Positions 35,461-42,452 of a stretch of DNA of 64,000 nt are shown one piece after another (the stretch's first letter is position 1; each line of letters opens with the position of its first letter). The position numbers and the translations under genes are program-made. The notes beneath the pieces are model-generated. The model saw nothing but the letters and a program-made list of their open reading frames with translations. It was not told the origin of the DNA and searched no databases. The DNA comes from a bacterium. GTDB taxonomy: Bacteria > SAR324 > NAC60-12. The stretch is from positions 384,001 through 448,000 of the forward strand of contig CBDDTI010000747.1 of assembly GCA_965233585.1 (NCBI GenBank), written 5' to 3'.

Positions 35461-36582
35461 TTAAGAGATTGGATGGGGAGCTTTGATTTGTTTCATCAAG
35501 TCATCATTCCATTCGCCCTCCACTTGGATATGAGAAGCAGCACCGAGCAAGAAAGCCTCAATCAGGTTATGAGACAAATAAGCGTAAAGTCCGGGCTGTT
35601 TAAACTGGTATGTAAAAGCAGCTGCAGAACCTGCAGCAATCACCCAAGATTCCAAATCGGTTGCAGGAACGTCATTAAAACTCCCACGTTCCCAAACATA
35701 ATCGCCATGCCCACCAATCAAATGTGGGTAAGACTGACGATTTGCTTGAGTGTGAACAAACAAGACAGTTTCACCAACCCTTGCTTTCATAGCGTTGTCT
35801 CCTGTCAACGCTCCCATTTTTCCACCAAATGGAATATGTGTAGGAATCAAGGTTTTCATCGCTTCTATATCATCAGCAGTGGAGCTGATAGAATCGGAAT
35901 AACGTTTGTAATTCCCGTTTTTGTCTTTGGGCAAGTAGTAGTCTTGTTCGCCAATATAGTAAGCACGGTCGTAGCGGATTGGTTTGCCTTGACCATCTTT
36001 CAAGCCATCTCTGGGCAAAATCATCACAGCGCCATTCATACCATGCGTCACATGCCAAGGCACCATCGCACCACCCGGAGCGCAGTGATAAACAAATGTC
36101 CCTGCTTTAATTGCCTTCCATCTTAAAATCACCTGCTCACCGGGGTTGACCAACGTGAGTTCACCGCCGCCTAAAGCACCTGTTGAGGCATGAAAGTCAA
36201 CATTGTGTGGCAACTTGTTTGTTGAAGGGTTGACCAAAGTCAGCTCAATGTAGTCACCTTCATGTGCAACAACTATTGGACCTGGAACTGACCCGTTGTA
36301 GGTGAAAGCCCAAATGAAGGCACCAGGAGCAACCTCTATCTCCTTTTCTTCTATCACAAACTCAATTTCTACGACCTTAGGTCTGCTGCTAGCTACCTGA
36401 CGATGTTCAGGCAAAAATGGAGGCTCTACCAGTTTTTGCTTCACACGTTGTAAGCCTTTCACACTTTCTGCTGATGCTTGTTGAAAGGCAGAAACGCCAA
36501 GTGCTGTTGCCGCTGCAGTAGCCGCGGTAGCTTTAATGAAACCACGACGATCCAAACCTTCTGGATTGACTTGTTCTGTCAT
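35461..36582 (-). CDS. nirK: Copper-containing nitrite reductase, Tat-exported
   Basis: Tat motif [44 protein letters not shown]. Confidence 0.96.
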
Positions 36583-37080
36583 TTTATTTCTCCAATAAAA
36601 AATATATTACAAAATTACCAAAAAATTGCATTTTATTTCGTTTTTTACAAAATGCAGTTTTCCAGTTAGATAAGACACAAATCTATCATACCTCAAAAAA
36701 GTTCTTGACACAAGATATTTTTTAATAAATCATATTTATATTACATTTGACGGGACAGACTTCAAGAAATGTAGGAGTTCAAAAAGAGTCATGCTAGTTC
36801 AGTAGTGCTGATAAAAGGCATTTGAATTGATGGCTTTAGAATGGTTTTGAAAAAATATCTTTGAATTTTTAAAGCTTAGAGTAGAAGTCAGGAATCCAAA
36901 TGTTTGCAGAATTTGAAGATAAATTGAGGGAGTAGTCAATATGATGACCACTTACAAAACTGTCAAAAAAATAATAAATTTTGAAAAACTATTGTTGTCT
37001 ATGCAGCAATACTTGTTTTAACTGAGTTGTGGATTATGACTACAACTTAATTTTTTTAATCTATACTGTATGGAGTTACT

Positions 37081-37719
37081 ATGAAAAAACAAATCAAAGC
37101 CGTTGCCAGAGGGTTGTCAATCACAATCGCATTGGGATTATTAAGTCCGTCTGTCCGGGCAGAAGAAAAACTTGACAAATTACCTCTTTCTGAAGTCCTT
37201 TCAGAACAAGATCAACATTCTGTCGCCTACCGTGTCAAAAAAGTCTATTTTGGGGTGAGAGAGGTCATTGTGGTTGGCAAAAGTAACTCTTTCAAAACGA
37301 GTTTGGAGAAGAAAGGAGACAAAGCAAGAGTGGTAGTATCAGTGCCTTGGACTTCGCTTGATTCACAATCTCGAAACAGAGATGAAACCGTTGCAGAATA
37401 CATGGGGTCAGAATATCCCCAAATTGTCTTCACCAGTGGTTGGACTCCTATTGAAGACATCAAGCAGGGGAGAACTTCTGACCGCTTGAAAATCAAAGGA
37501 ACTCTTGCGATTTCAGGAAGCTCTGAACCAGTGGAAGCCTCTGCTGTTGTCAAACAAGGAACAAACGACTTTGTTGTTGAAACAACTTTGTACACAACAT
37601 TCTCTGACATTAAAGTCAAAACTCCTAATGCTGGTGCGGCTTCAATCAAAGATGACCTGCATATGTACGGTCGCTTTCAAGTCAGTCAAGTTGAAGGGCT
37701 TGAAGCGATACTACAATAA
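37081..37719 (+). CDS. YceI-like secreted lipid/isoprenoid-binding protein, copy 1
   Basis: Signal peptide; SLDSQSRNRDE, YPQIVFTS and IKGTLAISG resemble YceI motifs. Confidence 0.7.
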   Translation: MKKQIKAVARGLSITIALGLLSPSVRAEEKLDKLPLSEVLSEQDQHSVAYRVKKVYFGVREVIVVGKSNSFKTSLEKKGDKARVVVSVPWTSLDSQSRNRDETVAEYMGSEYPQIVFTSGWTPIEDIKQGRTSDRLKIKGTLAISGSSEPVEASAVVKQGTNDFVVETTLYTTFSDIKVKTPNAGAASIKDDLHMYGRFQVSQVEGLEAILQ

Positions 37720-37780
37720 TTGAATACTACAATAATTGTAGTGTGTCTTTGCAGGAGCGATGTGATAGCTGAATGATGAT

Positions 37781-37849
37781 ATGTATCCATTAGAACGCAT
37801 CATAGGTTGGAATGTTGAACATACGTCTAACAAAAATAATAAATTTTGA
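37781..37849 (+). pseudogene. Duplicated 5' stub of the MarR-glutathione synthetase gene
   Basis: MYPLERIIGWNVEHTS matches MYPLKHLIGWNVEHTS at 38627, then stops after 22 codons. Confidence 0.85.
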
Positions 37850-37851
37850 CA

Positions 37852-37879
37852 AAGTATTGTTGTCTGTGCAACAATACTT
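37852..37879. promoter_or_regulatory. Perfect 11-bp inverted repeat, candidate MarR operator
   Basis: AAGTATTGTTG-N6-CAACAATACTT directly after a TTGACA; degenerate copy upstream of YceI copy 1. Confidence 0.5.
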
Positions 37880-37944
37880 GTTTTAACCGAGTTGTGGATT
37901 ATGACTACAACTTAATTTTTTAATCTATACTGTATGGAGTTACC

Positions 37945-38583
37945 ATGAAAAAACAAATCAAAGCCGTTGCCAAAGGATTGTCAATGACAATCGCATTGGG
38001 ATTATTAAGTCAGTCTGTCTGGGCAGAAGATGAACTTGACAAATTGCCTCTTTCTGAAGTCCTTTCAGAACAAGACCAACATTCTGTCGCCTACCGTGTC
38101 AAAAAAATCTTGTTTGGAGTGAAAAAGGTCATTGTGGTTGGCAAAAGTAATTCTTTTAAAACGAGCTTGGAGAAGAAAGGAGATCAAGCAAGGGTGGTGG
38201 TGTCAGTGCCTTGGACTTCATTTGACTCACAAGACCAAGACAGAGATGAAAGTGTTGCAGAACACATGGGGTCAGAATATCCCAAAATTGTTTTCACCAG
38301 TGATTGGACCCCTATTGAAGAAATTAAGCAGGCGAGAACTTCTGATTCCTTAAAAGTCAAGGGAAACCTTGCGGCTTCAGGAAGTTCTGAACCAGTGGAG
38401 GCTTCTGCCGTTGTGAAACAAGGAGCTAGCGATTTTGTTGTTGAAACAACTTTATACACAACATTCTCTCATATTAAAGTCAAAGCTCCTAGTGGTGGTG
38501 TGGCGTCAATTAAAGATGACCTCCACATCTACGGTCGTTTTCAGGTCAGCCAAGTTGAAGGGCTTGAGGCAATACTACAATAA
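37945..38583 (+). CDS. YceI-like secreted protein, copy 2
   Basis: Highly similar tandem paralog of 37081-37719, same length (212 aa). Confidence 0.7.
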   Translation: MKKQIKAVAKGLSMTIALGLLSQSVWAEDELDKLPLSEVLSEQDQHSVAYRVKKILFGVKKVIVVGKSNSFKTSLEKKGDQARVVVSVPWTSFDSQDQDRDESVAEHMGSEYPKIVFTSDWTPIEEIKQARTSDSLKVKGNLAASGSSEPVEASAVVKQGASDFVVETTLYTTFSHIKVKAPSGGVASIKDDLHIYGRFQVSQVEGLEAILQ

Positions 38584-38626
38584 TTGTAGTGTTTCTTTGC
38601 AGGAGTGATGCGATAGCTGAATCAAC

Positions 38627-40396
38627 ATGTATCCATTAAAACATCTCATCGGTTGGAATGTTGAACACACGTCTAAAATTTTACGTAGAGAACTACTGAC
38701 AGTTCTCAAACAATATGGCATCTCTCCTGAACAGTGGCAGGTCATGTTTCACCTTTGGTTTAGTGGAAGCTCACTACATCAAAAAGACCTTGCGTTGTTG
38801 ACATCACAAGGTAAATCTAGCATCTCACGTATCATCTTAAAGCTGGAACGTAAAGGTTGGATTCACAAAGAAACAGACCCAGATGACGTTCGTGCCACAG
38901 TCATTTATCCAACTGACCTGAGTCTTCAGTTTAAACATGTCATTTCTCACCAAGTCTCACAGCATTTTGAAAAAATCTTAAAAAATTGGTCTTCTGTTGA
39001 AAATCAATCTCTGATTTTGTTACTCAAGAAGTTGAGACAACTTTGCCTTGACCTTCCAGAACATCAAATTCTTGCTCCTGATTCAAAATTAAGCAGTGAA
39101 GAATTAGCTGATCGCATCAAAGAATCAGCATCGGCTCATGGGCTGTTTGTGAGACAGCAAGATGATGTTCCTATCATCGCTCCTCTTTCGCTTGACCCTT
39201 ATCCCATTACCAAAGAACATTTTGACCAAATTCAAGAAGCGACTTTGATTTATAATGAATTGATGATGAAAGTCTCTCATCAGTTTTCTTGGTTAGAGAC
39301 AGTTGCTTCAAACGTTGCAGAGGCTGATGATTTTACAAAAAATTTATTAGAGATTGCACGTGAGCAACAAAATCACAAACGATTGCTGATTGGACGCAAC
39401 GATTTTTTGTTTCCCCATAATGAGTCACCTAAACAGGTAGAATATAACACCATTTCTTCCAGCTTTTTGTCGTTGGCTCAAAAAGTCTTTGTCACACACC
39501 AAAATAGTGATTTTCAAAACTCACTTCATTCAAAACTAATTCCTAATGATTCTTTGCACGAAGCCTCTCAACTCATAAAAAACGTCTTATGTTCCTGTCC
39601 AAATTCCATTGCATTAATGGTGGTTCAGCCAAATGAGTTAAACGTATTTGACCAATTTGGCTTACTCCATGAGCTAAGAGTTCATCGTATTTTGATGAAA
39701 CGTGTGACTTTTGAAGATTTATTTCAACATGCAAAAGTCGTTGGAAAAGAATTGTATTACCAAGATTCCCTAGTTTCATTGGTGTATTGGCGTACAGGGT
39801 ACCGCCCTGAAGATTATGCTTCTTATCAAGCATGGGAGATGAGGATGCTGATGGAAAGGGCTGATACTTTTCATTGCCCCGATGCTACTCTTCAGCTAGC
39901 AGGCATGAAATCTGTACAACAAGAACTGACCAATCCTGAAGCTCTTCAGCTTTTCTTAAATTCTCAACAAATTCAAAAACTTAAAAAATGCTACGTTGCT
40001 TTACGAAAATGGGGCAAGGACATCGCACAACAAGTCTTGCAAAATCCTGATGGCTATGTGCTGAAGCCCCAAAGAGAGGGAGGGGGGAACAATTTTTTTG
40101 GGCAAGAGATTGTCAAAGCAGTCTCCTCTTTTTCTCAAAAAGAATTAGAGGCTCATATTGTCATGGAATACATTCCTGCACAAAGGCATGATGCAAGACT
40201 TTTGGTCAATGAAAGTTTAACTTGTGAAAAGTGTGTGACAGAAGTTGGAATTTATGGGGGTGCAGTCTGGCAAGATGGTAAGATTCAGAAGAACACAAAT
40301 TTAGGATACCTTGCACGAACCAAACTTGCTTCAGAAAACGAAGGAGGAGTTTGTGCAGGGTATGCCTGTTTAAATTCTCTTTATTCTTCTTTTTGA
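38627..40396 (+). CDS. MarR-family HTH fused to a eukaryotic-type glutathione synthetase
   Basis: MarR part: GISPEQWQVM, LHQKDLA, ISRIILKLERKGWI..DPDDVRA. GSS part: GRNDF, KQVEYNTISSSF, NVFDQ, YWRTGYRP, QLAGMKSVQQEL, VLKPQREGGGNN, GYLARTK..NEGGVCAGY. Confidence 0.9.
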   Translation: MYPLKHLIGWNVEHTSKILRRELLTVLKQYGISPEQWQVMFHLWFSGSSLHQKDLALLTSQGKSSISRIILKLERKGWIHKETDPDDVRATVIYPTDLSLQFKHVISHQVSQHFEKILKNWSSVENQSLILLLKKLRQLCLDLPEHQILAPDSKLSSEELADRIKESASAHGLFVRQQDDVPIIAPLSLDPYPITKEHFDQIQEATLIYNELMMKVSHQFSWLETVASNVAEADDFTKNLLEIAREQQNHKRLLIGRNDFLFPHNESPKQVEYNTISSSFLSLAQKVFVTHQNSDFQNSLHSKLIPNDSLHEASQLIKNVLCSCPNSIALMVVQPNELNVFDQFGLLHELRVHRILMKRVTFEDLFQHAKVVGKELYYQDSLVSLVYWRTGYRPEDYASYQAWEMRMLMERADTFHCPDATLQLAGMKSVQQELTNPEALQLFLNSQQIQKLKKCYVALRKWGKDIAQQVLQNPDGYVLKPQREGGGNNFFGQEIVKAVSSFSQKELEAHIVMEYIPAQRHDARLLVNESLTCEKCVTEVGIYGGAVWQDGKIQKNTNLGYLARTKLASENEGGVCAGYACLNSLYSSF

Positions 40397-40740
40397 TCCA
40401 TTTTTTCAATGACAATTTTAGAACCAGTTGTTTTGATTTTAATAGGATCATTAATATCCCAACCTAATTGAGTAAAAAATTGTTGTGGAATGACAATTTT
40501 TTTAGAGACCCCTCCACGACCTGATGCCTGAATGTAAGTTTCACGCTCTTTAGCCTTGGAACCTGACAGACGAGAACTAAAAACAGGAATGGACAGACCA
40601 AGCATTGATGATGCTTTGATAAGTCTTGAGTTAAACGTTGCTAAATTCATTTTTAAATGACTAGCCGTTGCGTTAAGAGTTAAACTTTTAGAAAGAGTTT
40701 TAACTTGTGCAAAAAATTGCTTTGCTTCTTCTACATTCAT
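40381..40740 (-). CDS. Small putative DNA-binding protein (HTH-like N-terminus + AbrB/MazE-like C-terminus)
   Basis: The C-terminal KIVIPQQFFTQLGWDINDPIKIKTTGSKIVIEK fits the AbrB swapped-hairpin pattern. Confidence 0.55.
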   Translation of the reverse strand: MNVEEAKQFFAQVKTLSKSLTLNATASHLKMNLATFNSRLIKASSMLGLSIPVFSSRLSGSKAKERETYIQASGRGGVSKKIVIPQQFFTQLGWDINDPIKIKTTGSKIVIEKMDQKEE

Positions 40741-42452
40741 AGCATTGATCCTTTTCTATGTGGGTTAAAATTAAAATGCAAAATTCTATCTTTCCATAAA
40801 AACAATGTCAATACCATACATATAAAAAATAAAAAATATCCCAAGCTGTTTTTAAATTCTCTATAAAATGAGAATCGTTTGCTTAGTTTGACTGTATGTG
40901 TGAAAGCCCCTTCTTGAAATAAACCTAAGACTCTCCCCTCTACTTTTCCTAATAAATTCACAAACTTGGTCTCCCCATTATTTGAGGCATATAGAAATGG
41001 GACACGTGTTTCAATGGCATTCCAGCGAATCATATTTTCTAACATATCAGAGGCGTTGGTTCTTCCAAACCATGCAAGGTTACTCAGATTCACTATGAAT
41101 TGAGTCCCGTTTTGAACCATCTGTCTTGGGATTTCAGGGTCAAACATATCAAAACAAATTGTTCCTGTCAGTTGAAGATTTTCTGAAATTTTAAAAACAG
41201 AATACTCTTGACCTGCTTCAAATTGACTCACTTGAGGAATCACTCTTTTCACAAAACGACCAAACCAAGGAGCAACATCGGCAAATGGAATGTATTCACC
41301 AAATGGGATTAAAAGAATTTTGTCATACTTTCCTATGACCTCTCCATCAGGATTGAGCAACAAGGACGAACTATAATACTTTCTTTCTCCTTCAATTAAA
41401 TCCCAACCTATTGTTGTCAGTAGCAAATAAACATTTGCATTTTGAACAAAAGACTTGACAATCTCCCGTGCCTTTTGGTTGTGAAAATAAGCAGATGAGA
41501 AGGTTGATTCAGGCCAGACGACAAGAGAAGGTACACTAGAGGAAGGTGACTTTTCTAACTCTTTGATAGAATCATCAATGAGTCCAGAAATATTATAGGC
41601 TCTTTTGGAAAATGTAAGGTCTGGGTTGGAGGCTAAGTTAGCAAGTGAAAAGTTAGGTTGTATCGTCACAACTTGTAAAGGTTGCCCCTGATTGAGTGTG
41701 GGTTTTAAATCAAATTCTCTCCAAAATCCATAAGAAAACGTCATCAAAAACATCAAAACGTAGATGCAAGTGAATTTTTTGAGCAAAGCAAATGGTTGTG
41801 TCAAATTGACTTGGGTAGAATTGCTTTGACACTCAAAAGAACGCCATAAACCTAAAAGTAAAAAATTTGAACCTATGACAAAGAATCCCAACCCTGTTGC
41901 CCCAATGAGGTCTGCCGCTTGCGATAAAAATGGAGTCTGCCTAAAGGTCATAGAACCAAAAGACCAGTGAAAAAATCTGGGGTATTGAGCATCAAAAAAT
42001 AATGCTAAAAAAATCCTAAATGGTAAATCTGCAACCAATGGTTGACGAATCAAAAAACAGGGGAGGACAAAGCAAACAAAAAGAATCCCGCCTAATTCCA
42101 AGCCGTATCCAAAACCATTGATTGCCAATGCAATCCAATAAGGGAGATGACCGAAGACCTCCAAACTATGTGCAATCCAAGGCGCACCAAGCACAGAAGC
42201 AACCGAAGCCGTCAACCAACAACAAAGCAAACTGGTTGCAACTTTTTTAAGGAAGGAATGCTGAAGAGCCTGTAAACGGTCTATCAGCACCAATAAGGGG
42301 AATAACCCAACAAGCCAAAGATATTGGTAGTACAGGTATTGAGTTGCAACTCCAAGCATCACTCCTGAAGTTGCAATGCACAGAAGCCAAGAGGCTGGGT
42401 TATTGAAGTGTTTGCCCATGACTTCTGAGGTCTCGGCAAGCTTGGACAACAC
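40737..42452 (-). CDS. lnt: Apolipoprotein N-acyltransferase
   Basis: VVWPES, YDKILLIPFGEYIP, ICFD, NLSNLAWFG, RWNAIE. Start codon uncertain. Confidence 0.92.
   Translation of the reverse strand: MLSKLAETSEVMGKHFNNPASWLLCIATSGVMLGVATQYLYYQYLWLVGLFPLLVLIDRLQALQHSFLKKVATSLLCCWLTASVASVLGAPWIAHSLEVFGHLPYWIALAINGFGYGLELGGILFVCFVLPCFLIRQPLVADLPFRIFLALFFDAQYPRFFHWSFGSMTFRQTPFLSQAADLIGATGLGFFVIGSNFLLLGLWRSFECQSNSTQVNLTQPFALLKKFTCIYVLMFLMTFSYGFWREFDLKPTLNQGQPLQVVTIQPNFSLANLASNPDLTFSKRAYNISGLIDDSIKELEKSPSSSVPSLVVWPESTFSSAYFHNQKAREIVKSFVQNANVYLLLTTIGWDLIEGERKYYSSSLLLNPDGEVIGKYDKILLIPFGEYIPFADVAPWFGRFVKRVIPQVSQFEAGQEYSVFKISENLQLTGTICFDMFDPEIPRQMVQNGTQFIVNLSNLAWFGRTNASDMLENMIRWNAIETRVPFLYASNNGETKFVNLLGKVEGRVLGLFQEGAFTHTVKLSKRFSFYREFKNSLGYFLFFICMVLTLFLWKDRILHFNFNPHRKGSML

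What the first reader, a model, noticed from the sequence alone, without database searches (positions are those of the whole stretch)
38627..40396. MarR regulator fused to a eukaryotic-type glutathione synthetase
Seen: one 589-aa ORF with no internal stop. Residues ~1-140 form a MarR winged-HTH. The rest carries motifs of the human/yeast/plant GSS family (QVEYNTISSSF, NVFDQ, YWRTGYRP, KPQREGGGNN, NEGGVCAGY) rather than those of E. coli GshB. Established: most bacteria use GshB or GshF, and MarR proteins commonly sense redox or electrophile stress. Inference: an autoregulated, trigger-enzyme-like protein coupling thiol synthesis to transcription, possibly of horizontally acquired origin. I do not recognise this fusion as described.
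Basis: partly seen in the sequence, partly recalled or inferred. Interest (0 to 1): 0.8.

Follow-up and report, generated by a model that had tools for sequence, protein, structure and literature searches.

The report
MarR repressor fused to glutathione synthetase
An uncultured SAR324 bacterium has welded a complete DNA-binding repressor onto its only glutathione-making enzyme, a rare gene fusion whose two parent genes and likely DNA target site can still be recognised in related bacteria.

Summary
Window 38627-40396 (+) is one 589-aa ORF: a complete MarR winged-helix repressor (aa 1-142), a ~13-aa linker, and a complete "eukaryotic-type" glutathione synthetase (GSS, Pfam PF03917/PF03199). It is not an assembly error. 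Three per-run assemblies bridge the joint without a difference. A second fused protein (P0002, 74% identical) keeps both halves equally well (76% and 74%) while the linker has drifted (25%).

This GSS type is not a recent import: 40 of 41 sampled genomes of the window's order carry it, always unfused. The MarR half is orthologous to stand-alone MarR genes that sit beside yceI-like genes and share a 14-bp palindrome (GTTGT-N4-ACAAC) in their promoters. That palindrome survives in both promoters of the window's yceI-yceI-marR::gss cluster.

All substrate-binding residues checked are intact. No other glutathione synthetase was found in the genome, which does hold a glutamate-cysteine ligase, glutaredoxin domains and GST-like genes.

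Best reading: an active enzyme that also represses its own operon. Allosteric "trigger-enzyme" coupling is untested.

The fusion is very rare (two sequences found) and I found it in no paper. New variant of a known kind; moderate interest.

The parts
38627..40396 (+). marR::gss fusion ORF, 589 aa (P0001)
   Evidence: AF2 model mean pLDDT 91.1, pTM 0.76
38627..39052 (+). MarR winged-helix domain, aa 1-142. Six helices plus a beta wing. It aligns end to end with stand-alone orthologues.
   Evidence: Pfam; alignment A3 shows the stand-alone MarRs ending where P0001 reads ...LRQLCLD; secondary structure H8-30, H34-46, H52-59, H63-75, E79-84, E87-95, H103-117, H123-142
39053..39091 (+). Linker, aa ~143-155
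   Evidence: 25% identity plus a 2-aa indel between P0001 and P0002 over aa 146-157; pLDDT < 50 at aa 145-152
39092..40393 (+). Eukaryotic-type glutathione synthetase domain, aa ~156-589
   Evidence: PF03917 and PF03199; aligns to human 2HGS residues 12-472, E 1.5e-61; 60 columns invariant across 22 bacterial GSS, the two fused ones included
37945..38583 (+). yceI-like gene, copy 2 (212 aa, signal peptide). It ends 43 nt before the fusion ORF on the same strand.
   Evidence: PF04264 E 2.6e-8; 32% identity, E 1e-30, to the YceI-like gene upstream of the stand-alone MarR in G016
37081..37719 (+). yceI-like gene, copy 1 (212 aa)
   Evidence: PF04264 E 1.2e-8; tandem duplicate
37846..37876 (+). 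Promoter-like site of copy 2: TTGACA-18-AACAAT. The palindrome TATTGTTG-TCTGTG-CAACAATA (core GTTGTCTGTGCAAC, 37859-37872) lies between the hexamers. Candidate MarR operator 1.
   Evidence: ranks 2nd in the 12.0-Mb genome with a matrix built only from other genomes' sites
36981..37011 (+). Same promoter-like region and operator 1 in copy 1 (core GTTGTCTATGCAGC, 36994-37007)
   Evidence: rank 20
37890..37912 (+). Second palindrome AGTTGT-N11-ACAACT, between promoter and start codon of copy 2. The same sequence lies at 37025-37047 in copy 1.
   Evidence: 2 matches, 0.07 expected. Also scored as a terminator-like hairpin, but the RNA fold is not exceptional (z -1.4 and -2.1).
38574..38590 (+). 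Palindrome ACTACAAT-A-ATTGTAGT over the yceI stop codon, just before the fusion ORF (also at 37726-37742). Role unknown.
   Evidence: RNA fold z -0.53
37781..37830 (+). Remnant of the first 50 nt of marR left after yceI copy 1 by the 864-bp tandem duplication (88% identical to 38627-38676)
   Evidence: family D4; sequence read

Best explanation
The protein is bifunctional.

C-terminal part (aa ~156-589). This is the cell's glutathione synthetase, making glutathione from gamma-glutamylcysteine, glycine and ATP.

N-terminal part (aa 1-142). This is a MarR-type dimeric repressor. It binds GTTGT-N4-ACAAC-like palindromes in the promoter(s) in front of the yceI-like genes, and so represses the yceI-yceI-marR::gss gene cluster, its own gene included.

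Origin. The ancestor was a small yceI-marR module that still exists unfused in other SAR324 genomes. The lineage's ordinary GSS gene landed behind marR and the stop codon was lost. GSS output is thereby tied to whatever signal releases this repressor from DNA.

Shown here: the domain architecture; the integrity and equal conservation of both halves; orthology and synteny of the MarR half; conservation of the operator-like motif; absence of another GSS in the assembly.

Inferred: enzyme activity, DNA binding, co-transcription with yceI, the order of events, and any signal.
For: (1) Real fusion. Three per-run assemblies bridge the joint. P0002 has the same architecture.

(2) Both halves under similar constraint. 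P0001 against P0002: MarR 75.9%, GSS 74.3%, linker 25% with an in-frame 2-aa indel. AF2 gives mean pLDDT 91.1, with only aa 145-152 below 50.

(3) GSS intact. Read off the HMMER alignment to human 2HGS, human R125, S149, S151, F152, E214, N216, Q220, R267 and Y270 are identical in P0001 (R257, S277, S279, F280, E337, N339, Q343, R389, Y392). PMC6297838 (passages read) names these as the residues that hold gamma-glutamylcysteine. E144, N146, K305, K364, E368, the GGG loop, N373, E425, R450 and K452 are also identical; their ATP/Mg roles are recalled, not checked here.

(4) Only GSS found. In the own genome (12.0 Mb, 92.5% complete) PF03917 matches once, the fusion, and GshB PF02955 not at all. 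One GCS2-type ligase is present: best NCBIfam match TIGR01436, 231 bits, below its cut-off of 463. There are 4 GST_N_3 matches and 2 glutaredoxin matches; one 84-aa frame counts in both.

(5) MarR orthology and synteny. The best stand-alone relatives are in G016 (40% identity) and G040 (32%). Each lies directly downstream of a YceI-like gene on the same strand. Of 6 more MarR loci from metagenomes, 2 (L089, L090) had a YceI-like neighbour and L092 a cytochrome b561 neighbour.

(6) Operator footprint. GTTG-N6-CAAC sites lie at the MarR locus in 7 of 11 non-window loci examined (L010, L011, L013, L090, L091, L092, L093; L090 and L091 are near-identical contigs; none in L012, L014, L089, L094). 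In G040 and L092 one site lies between a TTGACA and a TATAT-like box and a second follows it; in G016 the site in that position departs by one base (ATTGTCTATGCAAC). In the window GTTGTNNNNRCAAC gives 5 strand matches at 3 places, all in this locus, against 0.40 expected. A matrix built from 11 sites of other genomes ranks the window's promoter sites 2nd and 20th among the 30 positions scoring 15 or more in the whole genome.

(7) DNA-reading elements are kept relative to the stand-alone orthologues: SPEQWQVM, SISRIILKLERKGW, DPDDVRATVIYPT.
Against: No experiment and no RNA data bear on this.

TIGR01986 scores just under its equivalog cut-off: 315.6 for P0001 and 325.8 for P0002, against 329.8 (unfused G016 enzyme: 390.7).

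The fused pair sits on a long stem: 1.43 changes per column, where the other branches drawn in its clade run from 0.06 to 1.27. It has 25 clade-specific substitutions at positions at least 90% conserved in 20 unfused bacterial GSS. The enzyme may therefore have changed properties.

The second operator-like palindrome in the window has N11 spacing, not N4.

Promoter-like hits are not enriched in the region (13 found, 10.4 expected).

The genome is 92.5% complete, so a second GSS could be unassembled.

No operator-like site was seen at gshA, so the coupling would be to the yceI module, not to the glutathione pathway as a whole.
Confidence: 0.6

Rival explanations
1. Allosteric trigger enzyme. 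As the best explanation, but the ligand state of the GSS domain (gamma-Glu-Cys, ATP, glycine or glutathione bound) directly changes DNA binding by the MarR domain, giving transcriptional feedback on thiol status, as biotinyl-AMP does in BirA. This is a stronger sub-case of the best explanation.
For: Covalent linkage through a short, ~13-aa linker. Many of the 25 fusion-specific substitutions turn conserved charged residues of the GSS into hydrophobic ones (K175V/I, H184I, R344F, E347L, K429S/C, R515Y), as a new contact surface might. A Cys at aa 140, at the end of the last MarR helix, is present in both fused proteins and absent from the stand-alone orthologues. The human enzyme is described as an allosteric, negatively cooperative homodimer (PMC6297838, abstract and passages).
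Against: No data show contact between the domains. The linker is poorly conserved and modelled as disordered. I could not test whether the substituted residues cluster, because no coordinates are returned. The operator motif sits at the yceI promoter, not at gshA.
Confidence: 0.2
2. Enzyme with a relic. The protein is simply the glutathione synthetase. The MarR part no longer binds DNA and serves at most as an extra dimerisation or solubility module.
For: The second palindrome has changed spacing (N11) in the window. The copy-1 operator has one arm mismatch, CAGC for CAAC. The single-residue changes T->S in SPEQWQVM and D->G in the 'DK' motif distinguish the fused proteins from all the close orthologues.
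Against: The MarR part is as conserved as the enzyme between the two fused proteins (75.9% against 74.3%), while the linker has decayed to 25%. Pfam MarR and MarR_2 score above their gathering thresholds. The helices and wing are modelled at pLDDT 86-98 from aa 11 to 130. The best copy of the operator motif in this locus ranks 2nd in the genome.
Confidence: 0.12
3. Regulator with a dead enzyme. The GSS part has become a ligand-sensing domain without useful catalysis, as proposed for BzdR's shikimate-kinase-like domain or seen in the nematode GS-like effectors. The protein would then be only a transcription factor.
For: Long stem branch. 25 clade-specific substitutions. TIGR01986 score under the cut-off. 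Precedents: BzdR (PMC3602430, abstract only); GS-like effectors that lost canonical activity (PMC5919673, passages).
Against: Every substrate, ATP and metal residue checked is identical to the human enzyme. All 60 columns invariant in 22 bacterial GSS are kept. No other GSS or GshB was found in the genome, although a glutamate-cysteine ligase, glutaredoxin-domain and GST-like genes are present.
Confidence: 0.06
4. Artefact. Two adjacent genes were read as one because of a sequencing or assembly error at the joint.
For: Metagenome-assembled genome of 747 contigs. Word depth is low (4.6-6.5) in the runs laid.
Against: Three separate run assemblies agree base for base across 38400-40500. P0002, from another contig, has the same open joint with a different linker sequence.
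Confidence: 0.02

Closest known systems
Eukaryotic-type glutathione synthetase (human GSS 2HGS, yeast Gsh2 1M0T, potato 5OES; Pfam PF03917 + PF03199)
   Same: aa 154-586 align over the whole human enzyme (residues 12-472, E 1.5e-61). The gamma-Glu-Cys, ATP and metal residues and the KPQREGGGNN loop are identical.
   Different: About 31-34% identity to eukaryotic enzymes. It belongs to a bacterial, SAR324-dominated clade, separated from eukaryotes by 100/100 support on the branch around the eukaryote-bearing side. The A-loop reads GGVCAG where human has GGVAAG. It carries an N-terminal MarR domain.
Stand-alone MarR of the yceI-marR module in other SAR324 genomes (G016 locus L010, G040 locus L011; metagenome loci L089-L093)
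   Same: 30-40% identity over the whole MarR length. Shared signatures: (T/S)PEQWQV(M/L), the SR...(L/M)ER.GW recognition helix, and a D-x-R wing, which is exact only in the closest orthologues. A YceI-like neighbour in 4 of them (L010, L011, L089, L090) and a GTTGT-N4-ACAAC palindrome in the promoter in most.
   Different: Those proteins end after helix 6 (148-151 aa for L010 and L011). In the window the reading frame runs on into a GSS.
Trigger enzymes and bifunctional regulator-enzymes: BirA (wHTH + biotin ligase), NadR, PutA, archaeal RbkR (wHTH + riboflavin kinase)
   Same: One polypeptide with an N-terminal DNA-binding domain and a complete metabolic enzyme. Likely autoregulation.
   Different: In those proteins a ligand of the enzyme domain controls DNA binding, and the regulon is the enzyme's own pathway. 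Neither is shown here: the predicted operator is at a yceI promoter, and no MarR-GSS pair is described. BirA, NadR and PutA are recalled; RbkR was seen as abstract only (PMC5397151).
GshF (bifunctional gamma-glutamylcysteine ligase / glutathione synthetase of Streptococcus, Listeria, Pasteurella)
   Same: A fusion protein that involves the glutathione synthetase step (PMC10295655, passages).
   Different: GshF joins two enzymes, and its synthetase half is D-Ala-D-Ala-ligase-like. Here the partner is a transcription factor and the synthetase is of the eukaryotic type. The ligase gene is separate, about 120 kb away on the same contig.

Membership tests
Eukaryotic-type glutathione synthetase (PF03917/PF03199, TIGR01986) | Pfam GSH_synth_ATP with inserted GSH_synthase domain, above the gathering score | tested here: met
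   259.8 bits (cut-off 25) and 85.5 bits (cut-off 20.9)
Eukaryotic-type glutathione synthetase (PF03917/PF03199, TIGR01986) | NCBIfam equivalog score for TIGR01986 | tested here: not met
   315.6 bits against a cut-off of 329.8. P0002 scores 325.8, unfused G016 390.7, Chrysiogenes 272.8. This is a near miss that is shared with an unfused bacterial member.
Eukaryotic-type glutathione synthetase (PF03917/PF03199, TIGR01986) | Residues that bind gamma-glutamylcysteine (human R125, S149, S151, F152, E214, N216, Q220, R267, Y270) | tested here: met
   All nine are identical in the alignment. Roles come from PMC6297838 (passages).
Eukaryotic-type glutathione synthetase (PF03917/PF03199, TIGR01986) | ATP/Mg2+ residues and the glycine-rich loop (human E144, N146, K305, K364, E368, G369-371, N373, E425, R450, K452) | tested here: met
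   All identical and invariant in 22 bacterial GSS. Their roles are recalled from the 2HGS literature, not read here.
Eukaryotic-type glutathione synthetase (PF03917/PF03199, TIGR01986) | Catalysis of gamma-Glu-Cys + Gly + ATP -> GSH; homodimer | not testable with these tools
   Needs an enzyme assay and sizing of the purified protein.
MarR family transcriptional regulator | Winged helix-turn-helix matching Pfam MarR / MarR_2 above the gathering score | tested here: met
   34.4 bits (cut-off 24.6) and 36.3 bits (cut-off 27). PDB MarR proteins 3nrv and 2a61 match at E about 1e-7.
MarR family transcriptional regulator | Full six-helix fold with beta wing, including the N- and C-terminal dimerisation helices | tested here: met
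   AF2 secondary structure, with 10-residue block means of pLDDT 86-98 over aa 11-130. End-to-end alignment with 148-151-aa stand-alone MarRs. Dimer formation itself was not tested.
MarR family transcriptional regulator | Binds a (pseudo)palindromic operator in or near its own promoter | tested here: inconclusive
   A conserved GTTGT-N4-ACAAC palindrome lies in the promoters of orthologous loci and of the window's yceI genes. Binding itself is not testable here.
Trigger enzymes (BirA/NadR/PutA type) | DNA-binding domain and active enzyme in one polypeptide | tested here: met
   Architecture shown. Activity of either half is inferred only.
Trigger enzymes (BirA/NadR/PutA type) | Substrate or product occupancy of the enzyme controls DNA binding | not testable with these tools
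   Needs gel shifts with and without ligands.
Trigger enzymes (BirA/NadR/PutA type) | The regulon is the enzyme's own pathway | tested here: inconclusive
   Among the 30 positions scoring 15 or more in the genome-wide matrix scan, two are in the fusion's own operon and none is at gshA (C747:543426-544271). The three other top hits examined (ranks 1, 3, 4) looked intragenic or non-promoter.
Prokaryotic GshB (PF02951/PF02955) | Match to the GshB ATP-grasp families | tested here: not met
   No GshB family among the 11 Pfam families listed for P0001 at E <= 0.1. PF02955 was not found anywhere in the own genome.
GshF | N-terminal GshA-like ligase domain | tested here: not met
   The N-terminus is MarR. 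PF04262 was not found in the genome.

The most novel reading that the evidence does not exclude
The fusion is a newly born trigger enzyme. Occupancy of the glutathione synthetase active site (gamma-Glu-Cys / ATP / GSH), or oxidation of the fusion-specific Cys140 next to the linker, moves the MarR dimer on or off the GTTGT-N4-ACAAC operators. The cell would then read its thiol status directly at a promoter that controls periplasmic YceI proteins and the synthetase itself. Both unfused parents and the operator are identifiable in sister genomes, so this would be a rare case where the birth of allosteric coupling between an enzyme and a repressor could be reconstructed step by step.
Probability: 0.2. 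Interest if true: 0.75.

Novelty: new variant of a known kind. Interest (0 to 1): 0.5.

Why it matters
Regulator-enzyme fusions such as BirA, NadR and PutA are textbook examples of metabolism talking directly to transcription. Their origins are ancient and cannot be traced.

Here the event is young enough that both parents survive unfused in related SAR324 genomes. These are a yceI-linked MarR with a recognisable operator, and the lineage's ordinary glutathione synthetase. One can therefore ask experimentally what a fresh fusion gains: mere co-expression, or new allostery.

It would also be the first transcription factor I know of that is physically joined to a glutathione biosynthesis enzyme.

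A by-product may interest a wider audience. The so-called eukaryotic glutathione synthetase is the standard enzyme of a whole bacterial order and forms its own deep bacterial clade. That bears on the open question of where eukaryotes got this enzyme.

Tried and rejected
- Complex prediction, GSS domain (aa 156-589) against MarR domain (aa 1-145): no answer, score 0.00 in both runs, controls not run. This is no evidence either way.
- Sequencing runs: no RNA holder listed, so nothing can be said about expression. All four runs are contigs of one study, and three are of one sample that may be the assembly's source.
- The search for related loci with P0001 alone in genome contigs: 39 pattern matches, none a relative.
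- JGI metagenome scan with the P0001/P0002 alignment: 6 loci, all stand-alone MarR, no further fusion.
- Rfam on the whole window: 0 matches.
- RNA folding of the leader hairpin and of the intercistronic palindrome: z -1.4, -2.1 and -0.5, not exceptional. I read them as DNA palindromes, not as attenuators.
- Promoter-like hits are not enriched (13 against 10.4 +/- 3.2). Terminator-like hits: 6 against 3.3 +/- 1.9.
- Long ORFs at the GSS locus of G026 (596 aa) and of L076 (575 aa) looked like possible fusions. Their N-terminal extensions are G+C-rich read-through with no MarR similarity.
- The idea that marR and gss were already neighbours in relatives is rejected. In G016, G040 and G020 the best MarR match and the GSS lie on different contigs; in G003 a weak MarR match is 55 kb from the GSS.
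- Regulon search: the other top matrix hits examined (ranks 1, 3 and 4) are intragenic or in featureless DNA.
- Literature: 'eukaryotic-type glutathione synthetase' + bacteria, 0 papers. 'MarR' + 'glutathione synthetase' + fusion matched mostly 'marrow'. 'MarR family' + 'glutathione synthetase' + domain gave 9 papers, none on a fusion by title or abstract. YceI + MarR gave 9 papers, none on such a module by title or abstract. SAR324 + 'glutathione synth' gave 3 papers, none about this by title or abstract. PF03917 gave 7 papers, 6 listed, none on bacteria by title.
Its upstream region, its operator and dN/dS could therefore not be examined.
Full report
1. THE OBSERVATION

Window 38627-40396 (+) is a single ATG-started ORF of 589 codons with no internal stop. 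The complementary strand in the same register is full of stops.

Pfam places MarR/MarR_2 at aa 30-90, above the gathering scores. It places the two domains of the "eukaryotic" glutathione synthetase at aa 157-586 (PF03917, E 4.5e-77) and aa 328-425 (PF03199, E 4.6e-24). NCBIfam's equivalog for the eukaryotic enzyme, TIGR01986, scores 315.6 bits, just under its cut-off of 329.8. No GshB-type family is among the 11 Pfam families listed at E <= 0.1.

2. IS THE JOINT REAL?

Logan contigs of three runs each cover 38400-40500 in one piece with no differing letter and no gap. These three runs come from one sample, which may be the source of the assembly, so they are not fully independent. A fourth run from a second sample covers only 39150-40500.

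Independent evidence is the protein P0002 (591 aa, from another contig). It has the same four Pfam domains and is 74% identical over the full length. Split by region, identity between the two proteins is:
- 75.9% in the MarR part (aa 1-145);
- 74.3% in the GSS part (aa 158-589);
- 25% in the linker (aa 146-157), which also holds an in-frame 2-residue indel.

That is the pattern of two folded, selected domains joined by a free linker. It is not the pattern of a read-through error.

An AlphaFold2 model built on a 35-row alignment has mean pLDDT 91.1 and pTM 0.76. The only stretch below 50 is aa 145-152.

3. HOW RARE IS THE FUSION?

- Word-indexed search of 5.8 billion cluster representatives, length range 323-1031 aa: 163 hits, of which 2 carry MarR, namely the query and P0002.
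- Exhaustive phmmer over 1.84 billion 50%-identity representatives: 2840 hits. Among the best 150 listed, only the query itself is matched before query residue 143. Weaker, unlisted hits were not inspected.
- Other genomes: none of the 40 relatives' GSS loci is fused, and none of the 69 GTDB genome loci matches query residues before 130. Two long ORFs that looked like candidates turned out to be G+C-rich read-through.
- A scan of JGI metagenomes with patterns specific to the fused pair returned six loci, all stand-alone MarR genes.

4. THE ORGANISM AND THE GSS HALF

The window lies on a 1.07-Mb contig of a 12.0-Mb, 747-contig assembly, 92.5% complete and 2.1% contaminated. Earlier notes of this scan called it a SAR324-clade bacterium. 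I checked this at taxon level only. GSS rows from five same-family relatives are identical to rows from records titled "SAR324 cluster bacterium" or "Deltaproteobacteria bacterium". Most of the 69 related loci carry SAR324 or Candidatus Lambdaproteobacteria titles.

PF03917 is found in 40 of 41 sampled genomes of the order (own genome included; the miss is 93% complete). It is found in 64 of 88 genomes of the phylum, and in none of 14 well-known control genomes. So the "eukaryotic" enzyme is this lineage's ordinary glutathione synthetase, not a recent import.

A careful maximum-likelihood tree was built from 38 rows chosen out of the 70 used in the quick tree (LG+C20+F+G4). It shows the following.
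- The fused pair (100/100) lies in an unresolved clade (88/91) that holds all the family-f1 rows, the marine SAR324 rows and Chrysiogenes.
- The nine eukaryotes lie across a 100/100 branch, together with four gammaproteobacterial rows and one Nannocystis row.
- The stem of the fused pair is long, 1.43 changes per column.

The tree is unrooted, and the long branch limits what can be said about exact placement.

5. IS THE ENZYME INTACT?

I read positions off the HMMER alignment to human 2HGS. The nine residues that PMC6297838 (passages read) reports as holding gamma-glutamylcysteine are R125, S149, S151, F152, E214, N216, Q220, R267 and Y270. All are identical in P0001 (R257, S277, S279, F280, E337, N339, Q343, R389, Y392).

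E144, N146, K305, K364, E368, GGG 369-371, N373, E425, R450 and K452 are also identical. I recall these as the ATP/Mg2+ set of the 2HGS structure but did not check that in a paper.

All 60 columns invariant across 22 bacterial GSS include the two fused proteins.

Differences:
- The first Ala of the human GGVAAG loop is Cys. Relatives have Cys or Ser there.
- There are 25 positions where both fused proteins depart from a residue kept in at least 18 of 20 unfused bacterial enzymes. Several are charged-to-hydrophobic changes.

In the own genome PF03917 matches only once. GshB (PF02955), E. coli-type GshA (PF04262) and eukaryotic GCL (PF03074) are not found; for PF03074 the control rang nowhere, so that blank is uninformative. 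A 444-aa GCS2-type ligase lies about 120 kb downstream on the same contig. Its best NCBIfam match is the plant-type glutamate-cysteine ligase, at 231 bits, below the cut-off of 463. There are also 4 GST_N_3 matches and 2 glutaredoxin matches, one 84-aa frame being counted in both.

The simplest reading is that the fusion protein is the cell's working glutathione synthetase.

6. THE MarR HALF AND WHERE IT CAME FROM

I searched aa 1-150 against the 41 genomes. It finds itself; a 148-aa stand-alone MarR in G016 (40% identity, E 1.7e-32); a 151-aa one in G040 (32%, E 2.7e-23); and weaker matches in 13 more genomes. The other 25 genomes had none at E <= 0.01.

In G016, G040 and G020 the MarR match and the GSS are on different contigs, so the two genes were not neighbours there.

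In G016 and G040 the MarR gene lies directly downstream of a YceI-like gene on the same strand, overlapping it by 4 nt in G016. The G016 YceI-like protein is 32% identical (E 1e-30) to the one in the window. In the window two tandem yceI-like genes (37081-37719 and 37945-38583) precede the fusion on the same strand, the second ending 43 nt before it. They are the only PF04264 matches in the genome.

Of six further MarR orthologues from metagenomes (36-40% identity):
- L089 has a YceI-like gene upstream and L090 one downstream;
- L092 is followed by a cytochrome b561 gene;
- the others had no recognisable partner.

Alignment A3 shows the stand-alone proteins ending exactly where P0001 reads ...LRQLCLD. 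The unfused GSS proteins begin about where P0001 reads SEELADRIKE. So two complete genes were joined, with about 13 residues in between.

7. A CONSERVED OPERATOR-LIKE MOTIF

The upstream regions read as follows.
- G040 yceI: TTGACA-at-AGTTGTCTGCGCAACT-aa-TATAT-gg-TTGTCCGGACAAC.
- G016: TTGACAggattaATTGTCTATGCAACcatat, plus AGTTGTCTAGACAACT and AGTTGTCTAAACAACT.
- L092: TTGACAttatGTTGTTTGTGCAACtatattataattGTTGTCTATGCAAC, plus a third site after the gene.
- Window, copy 2: TTGACAaagtattGTTGTCTGTGCAACaatact (37846-37876). Copy 1 is the same with one arm mismatch (36994-37007). Each is followed by AGTTGT-N11-ACAACT.

Counts:
- GTTG-N6-CAAC occurs at the MarR locus in 7 of the 11 non-window loci examined. 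L090 and L091 are near-identical contigs; L012, L014, L089 and L094 have none, and L089 is cut off upstream.
- In the window, GTTGTCTRTGCARC with at most one mismatch gives 2 matches against 0.11 expected.
- GTTGTNNNNRCAAC gives 5 strand matches at 3 places, all within this locus, against 0.40 expected. None of 100 shuffles reached 5.

A position matrix built only from 11 sites of other genomes was run over all 12.0 Mb. It ranks the copy-2 promoter site 2nd and the copy-1 site 20th among the 30 positions scoring 15 or more. The version that included the window's own sites ranked it 1st but is circular. The three other top hits I looked at are intragenic or in featureless DNA. No site lies at the ligase gene.

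This is a phylogenetic footprint of a binding site between and just after the promoter hexamers. That is the usual place for a MarR repressor, and the site has been kept in the genome where the repressor is fused. It does not prove binding.

8. MECHANISM, WITH SHOWN AND INFERRED STEPS SEPARATED

Shown:
- the architecture;
- integrity and parallel conservation of both halves;
- orthology and synteny of the MarR half with a yceI-marR module;
- the conserved palindrome;
- that this is the only GSS found in the assembly.

Inferred:
(a) the protein makes glutathione;
(b) as a dimer it represses the yceI promoter(s) and hence, by read-through of the 43-nt gap, its own synthesis. No terminator-like site was called between 38584 and 38626;
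(c) whatever ligand or oxidant releases this MarR raises YceI and GSS together;
(d) the fusion arose when the lineage's GSS gene moved behind marR and the stop codon was lost.

I put about 0.6 on (a) and (b) both being true.

A stronger version has the enzyme's ligand state gating DNA binding, a true trigger enzyme like BirA. It is attractive but rests only on hints: the short linker, the cluster of charged-to-hydrophobic substitutions, and a Cys (C140) in both fused proteins that is absent from the stand-alone orthologues. I give it about 0.2.

9. COMPARISON WITH WHAT IS KNOWN

As an enzyme it is a member of the PF03917 family by domain and residue criteria, with a near-miss on the NCBIfam equivalog score. 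As a regulator it is a MarR-family member.

As a system it works like the bifunctional regulator-enzymes BirA, NadR and PutA (recalled) and RbkR (abstract of PMC5397151). The defining feature of those proteins, ligand-controlled DNA binding that regulates the enzyme's own pathway, is untested here. In part it is not met, since the operator sits at yceI and not at gshA.

It is not GshF, which is an enzyme-enzyme fusion with a Ddl-like synthetase (PMC10295655 passages).

MarR domains fused to other enzymes, such as GNAT acetyltransferases, exist to my recollection. The kind is therefore known, and the combination is new as far as my searches reach.

10. VERDICT

A real, rare and tidy gene fusion whose ancestry can be read from sister genomes. 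It is probably a working enzyme that doubles as the repressor of its own small operon. New variant of a known kind. Interest is moderate at 0.5, and would be higher if allosteric coupling were shown.

Noticed in passing
window 36954-38676: An 864-bp tandem duplication: 36954-37830 and 37819-38676, with segments 88-94% identical. Each unit carries the promoter and palindromes, a yceI-like gene, the intercistronic palindrome and the first 50 nt of marR. Copy 1 is therefore followed by a dead marR stub (37781-37830), which I read by eye as a short 22-codon frame.
   Followed up: partly
loci L020-L088; genomes G001-G087: The 'eukaryotic' glutathione synthetase family PF03917 is the usual enzyme of SAR324: 64 of 88 phylum genomes and 40 of 41 in the order sample. 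It forms a bacterial clade distinct from eukaryotes. In the careful tree the eukaryotes share a 100/100 branch with four Gammaproteobacteria rows (Thiomargarita, Thiotrichales, Methylococcaceae and one unnamed). This may bear on the origin of the eukaryotic enzyme. The tree is unrooted.
   Followed up: partly
L074 (record titled uncultured Nannocystis sp.): Its GSS nests inside the eukaryotes, next to an oomycete row (90/63). This is either transfer from a eukaryote or a contaminant contig in the bin.
   Followed up: no
window 40346-40363 (aa 574-579 of P0001); alignment A3: The loop that reads GGVAAG in human GSS reads GGVCAG in the fusion and GGV(C/S)AG in most SAR324 relatives. In plants, changes in this loop switch the enzyme from glycine to beta-alanine (recalled). 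The third substrate may be worth checking.
   Followed up: no
window 37573-37586 and 38437-38450: A perfect GTTGTTGAAACAAC palindrome lies inside each yceI copy, about 190 nt upstream of the marR start (the marR stub in copy 1). It could be a third operator or a by-product of the codons (VVETT).
   Followed up: no
L092 4463-5068: In this metagenome locus the orthologous MarR is followed by another copy of the operator motif and a cytochrome b561 gene (PF01292). This recalls the E. coli yceJ-yceI pair (recalled) and hints that this MarR subfamily controls an envelope redox or quinone module.
   Followed up: partly
G056:C5:17176-18476: The GSS of this relative is split into two frames (profile positions 31-235 and 268-363). 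It may be a pseudogene or a sequencing error.
   Followed up: no
window 40381-40740 (-): A 119-aa ORF with a weak AbrB/MazE-like C-terminus (E 4.9e-4, below the Pfam cut-off) converges on the fusion gene and overlaps its last 16 nt. It overlaps by 4 nt the end of an apolipoprotein N-acyltransferase gene (40737-42452, -).
   Followed up: no
window 35461-36582 (-): A TAT-signal, two-domain multicopper protein (copper nitrite reductase-like) is divergently oriented from the yceI cluster across a 498-bp A+T-rich gap.
   Followed up: no
whole genome G000: At 12.0 Mb (2.1% contamination) this assembly is the largest among the 88 genomes of its phylum sampled, which run from 1.3 to 9.7 Mb.
   Followed up: no
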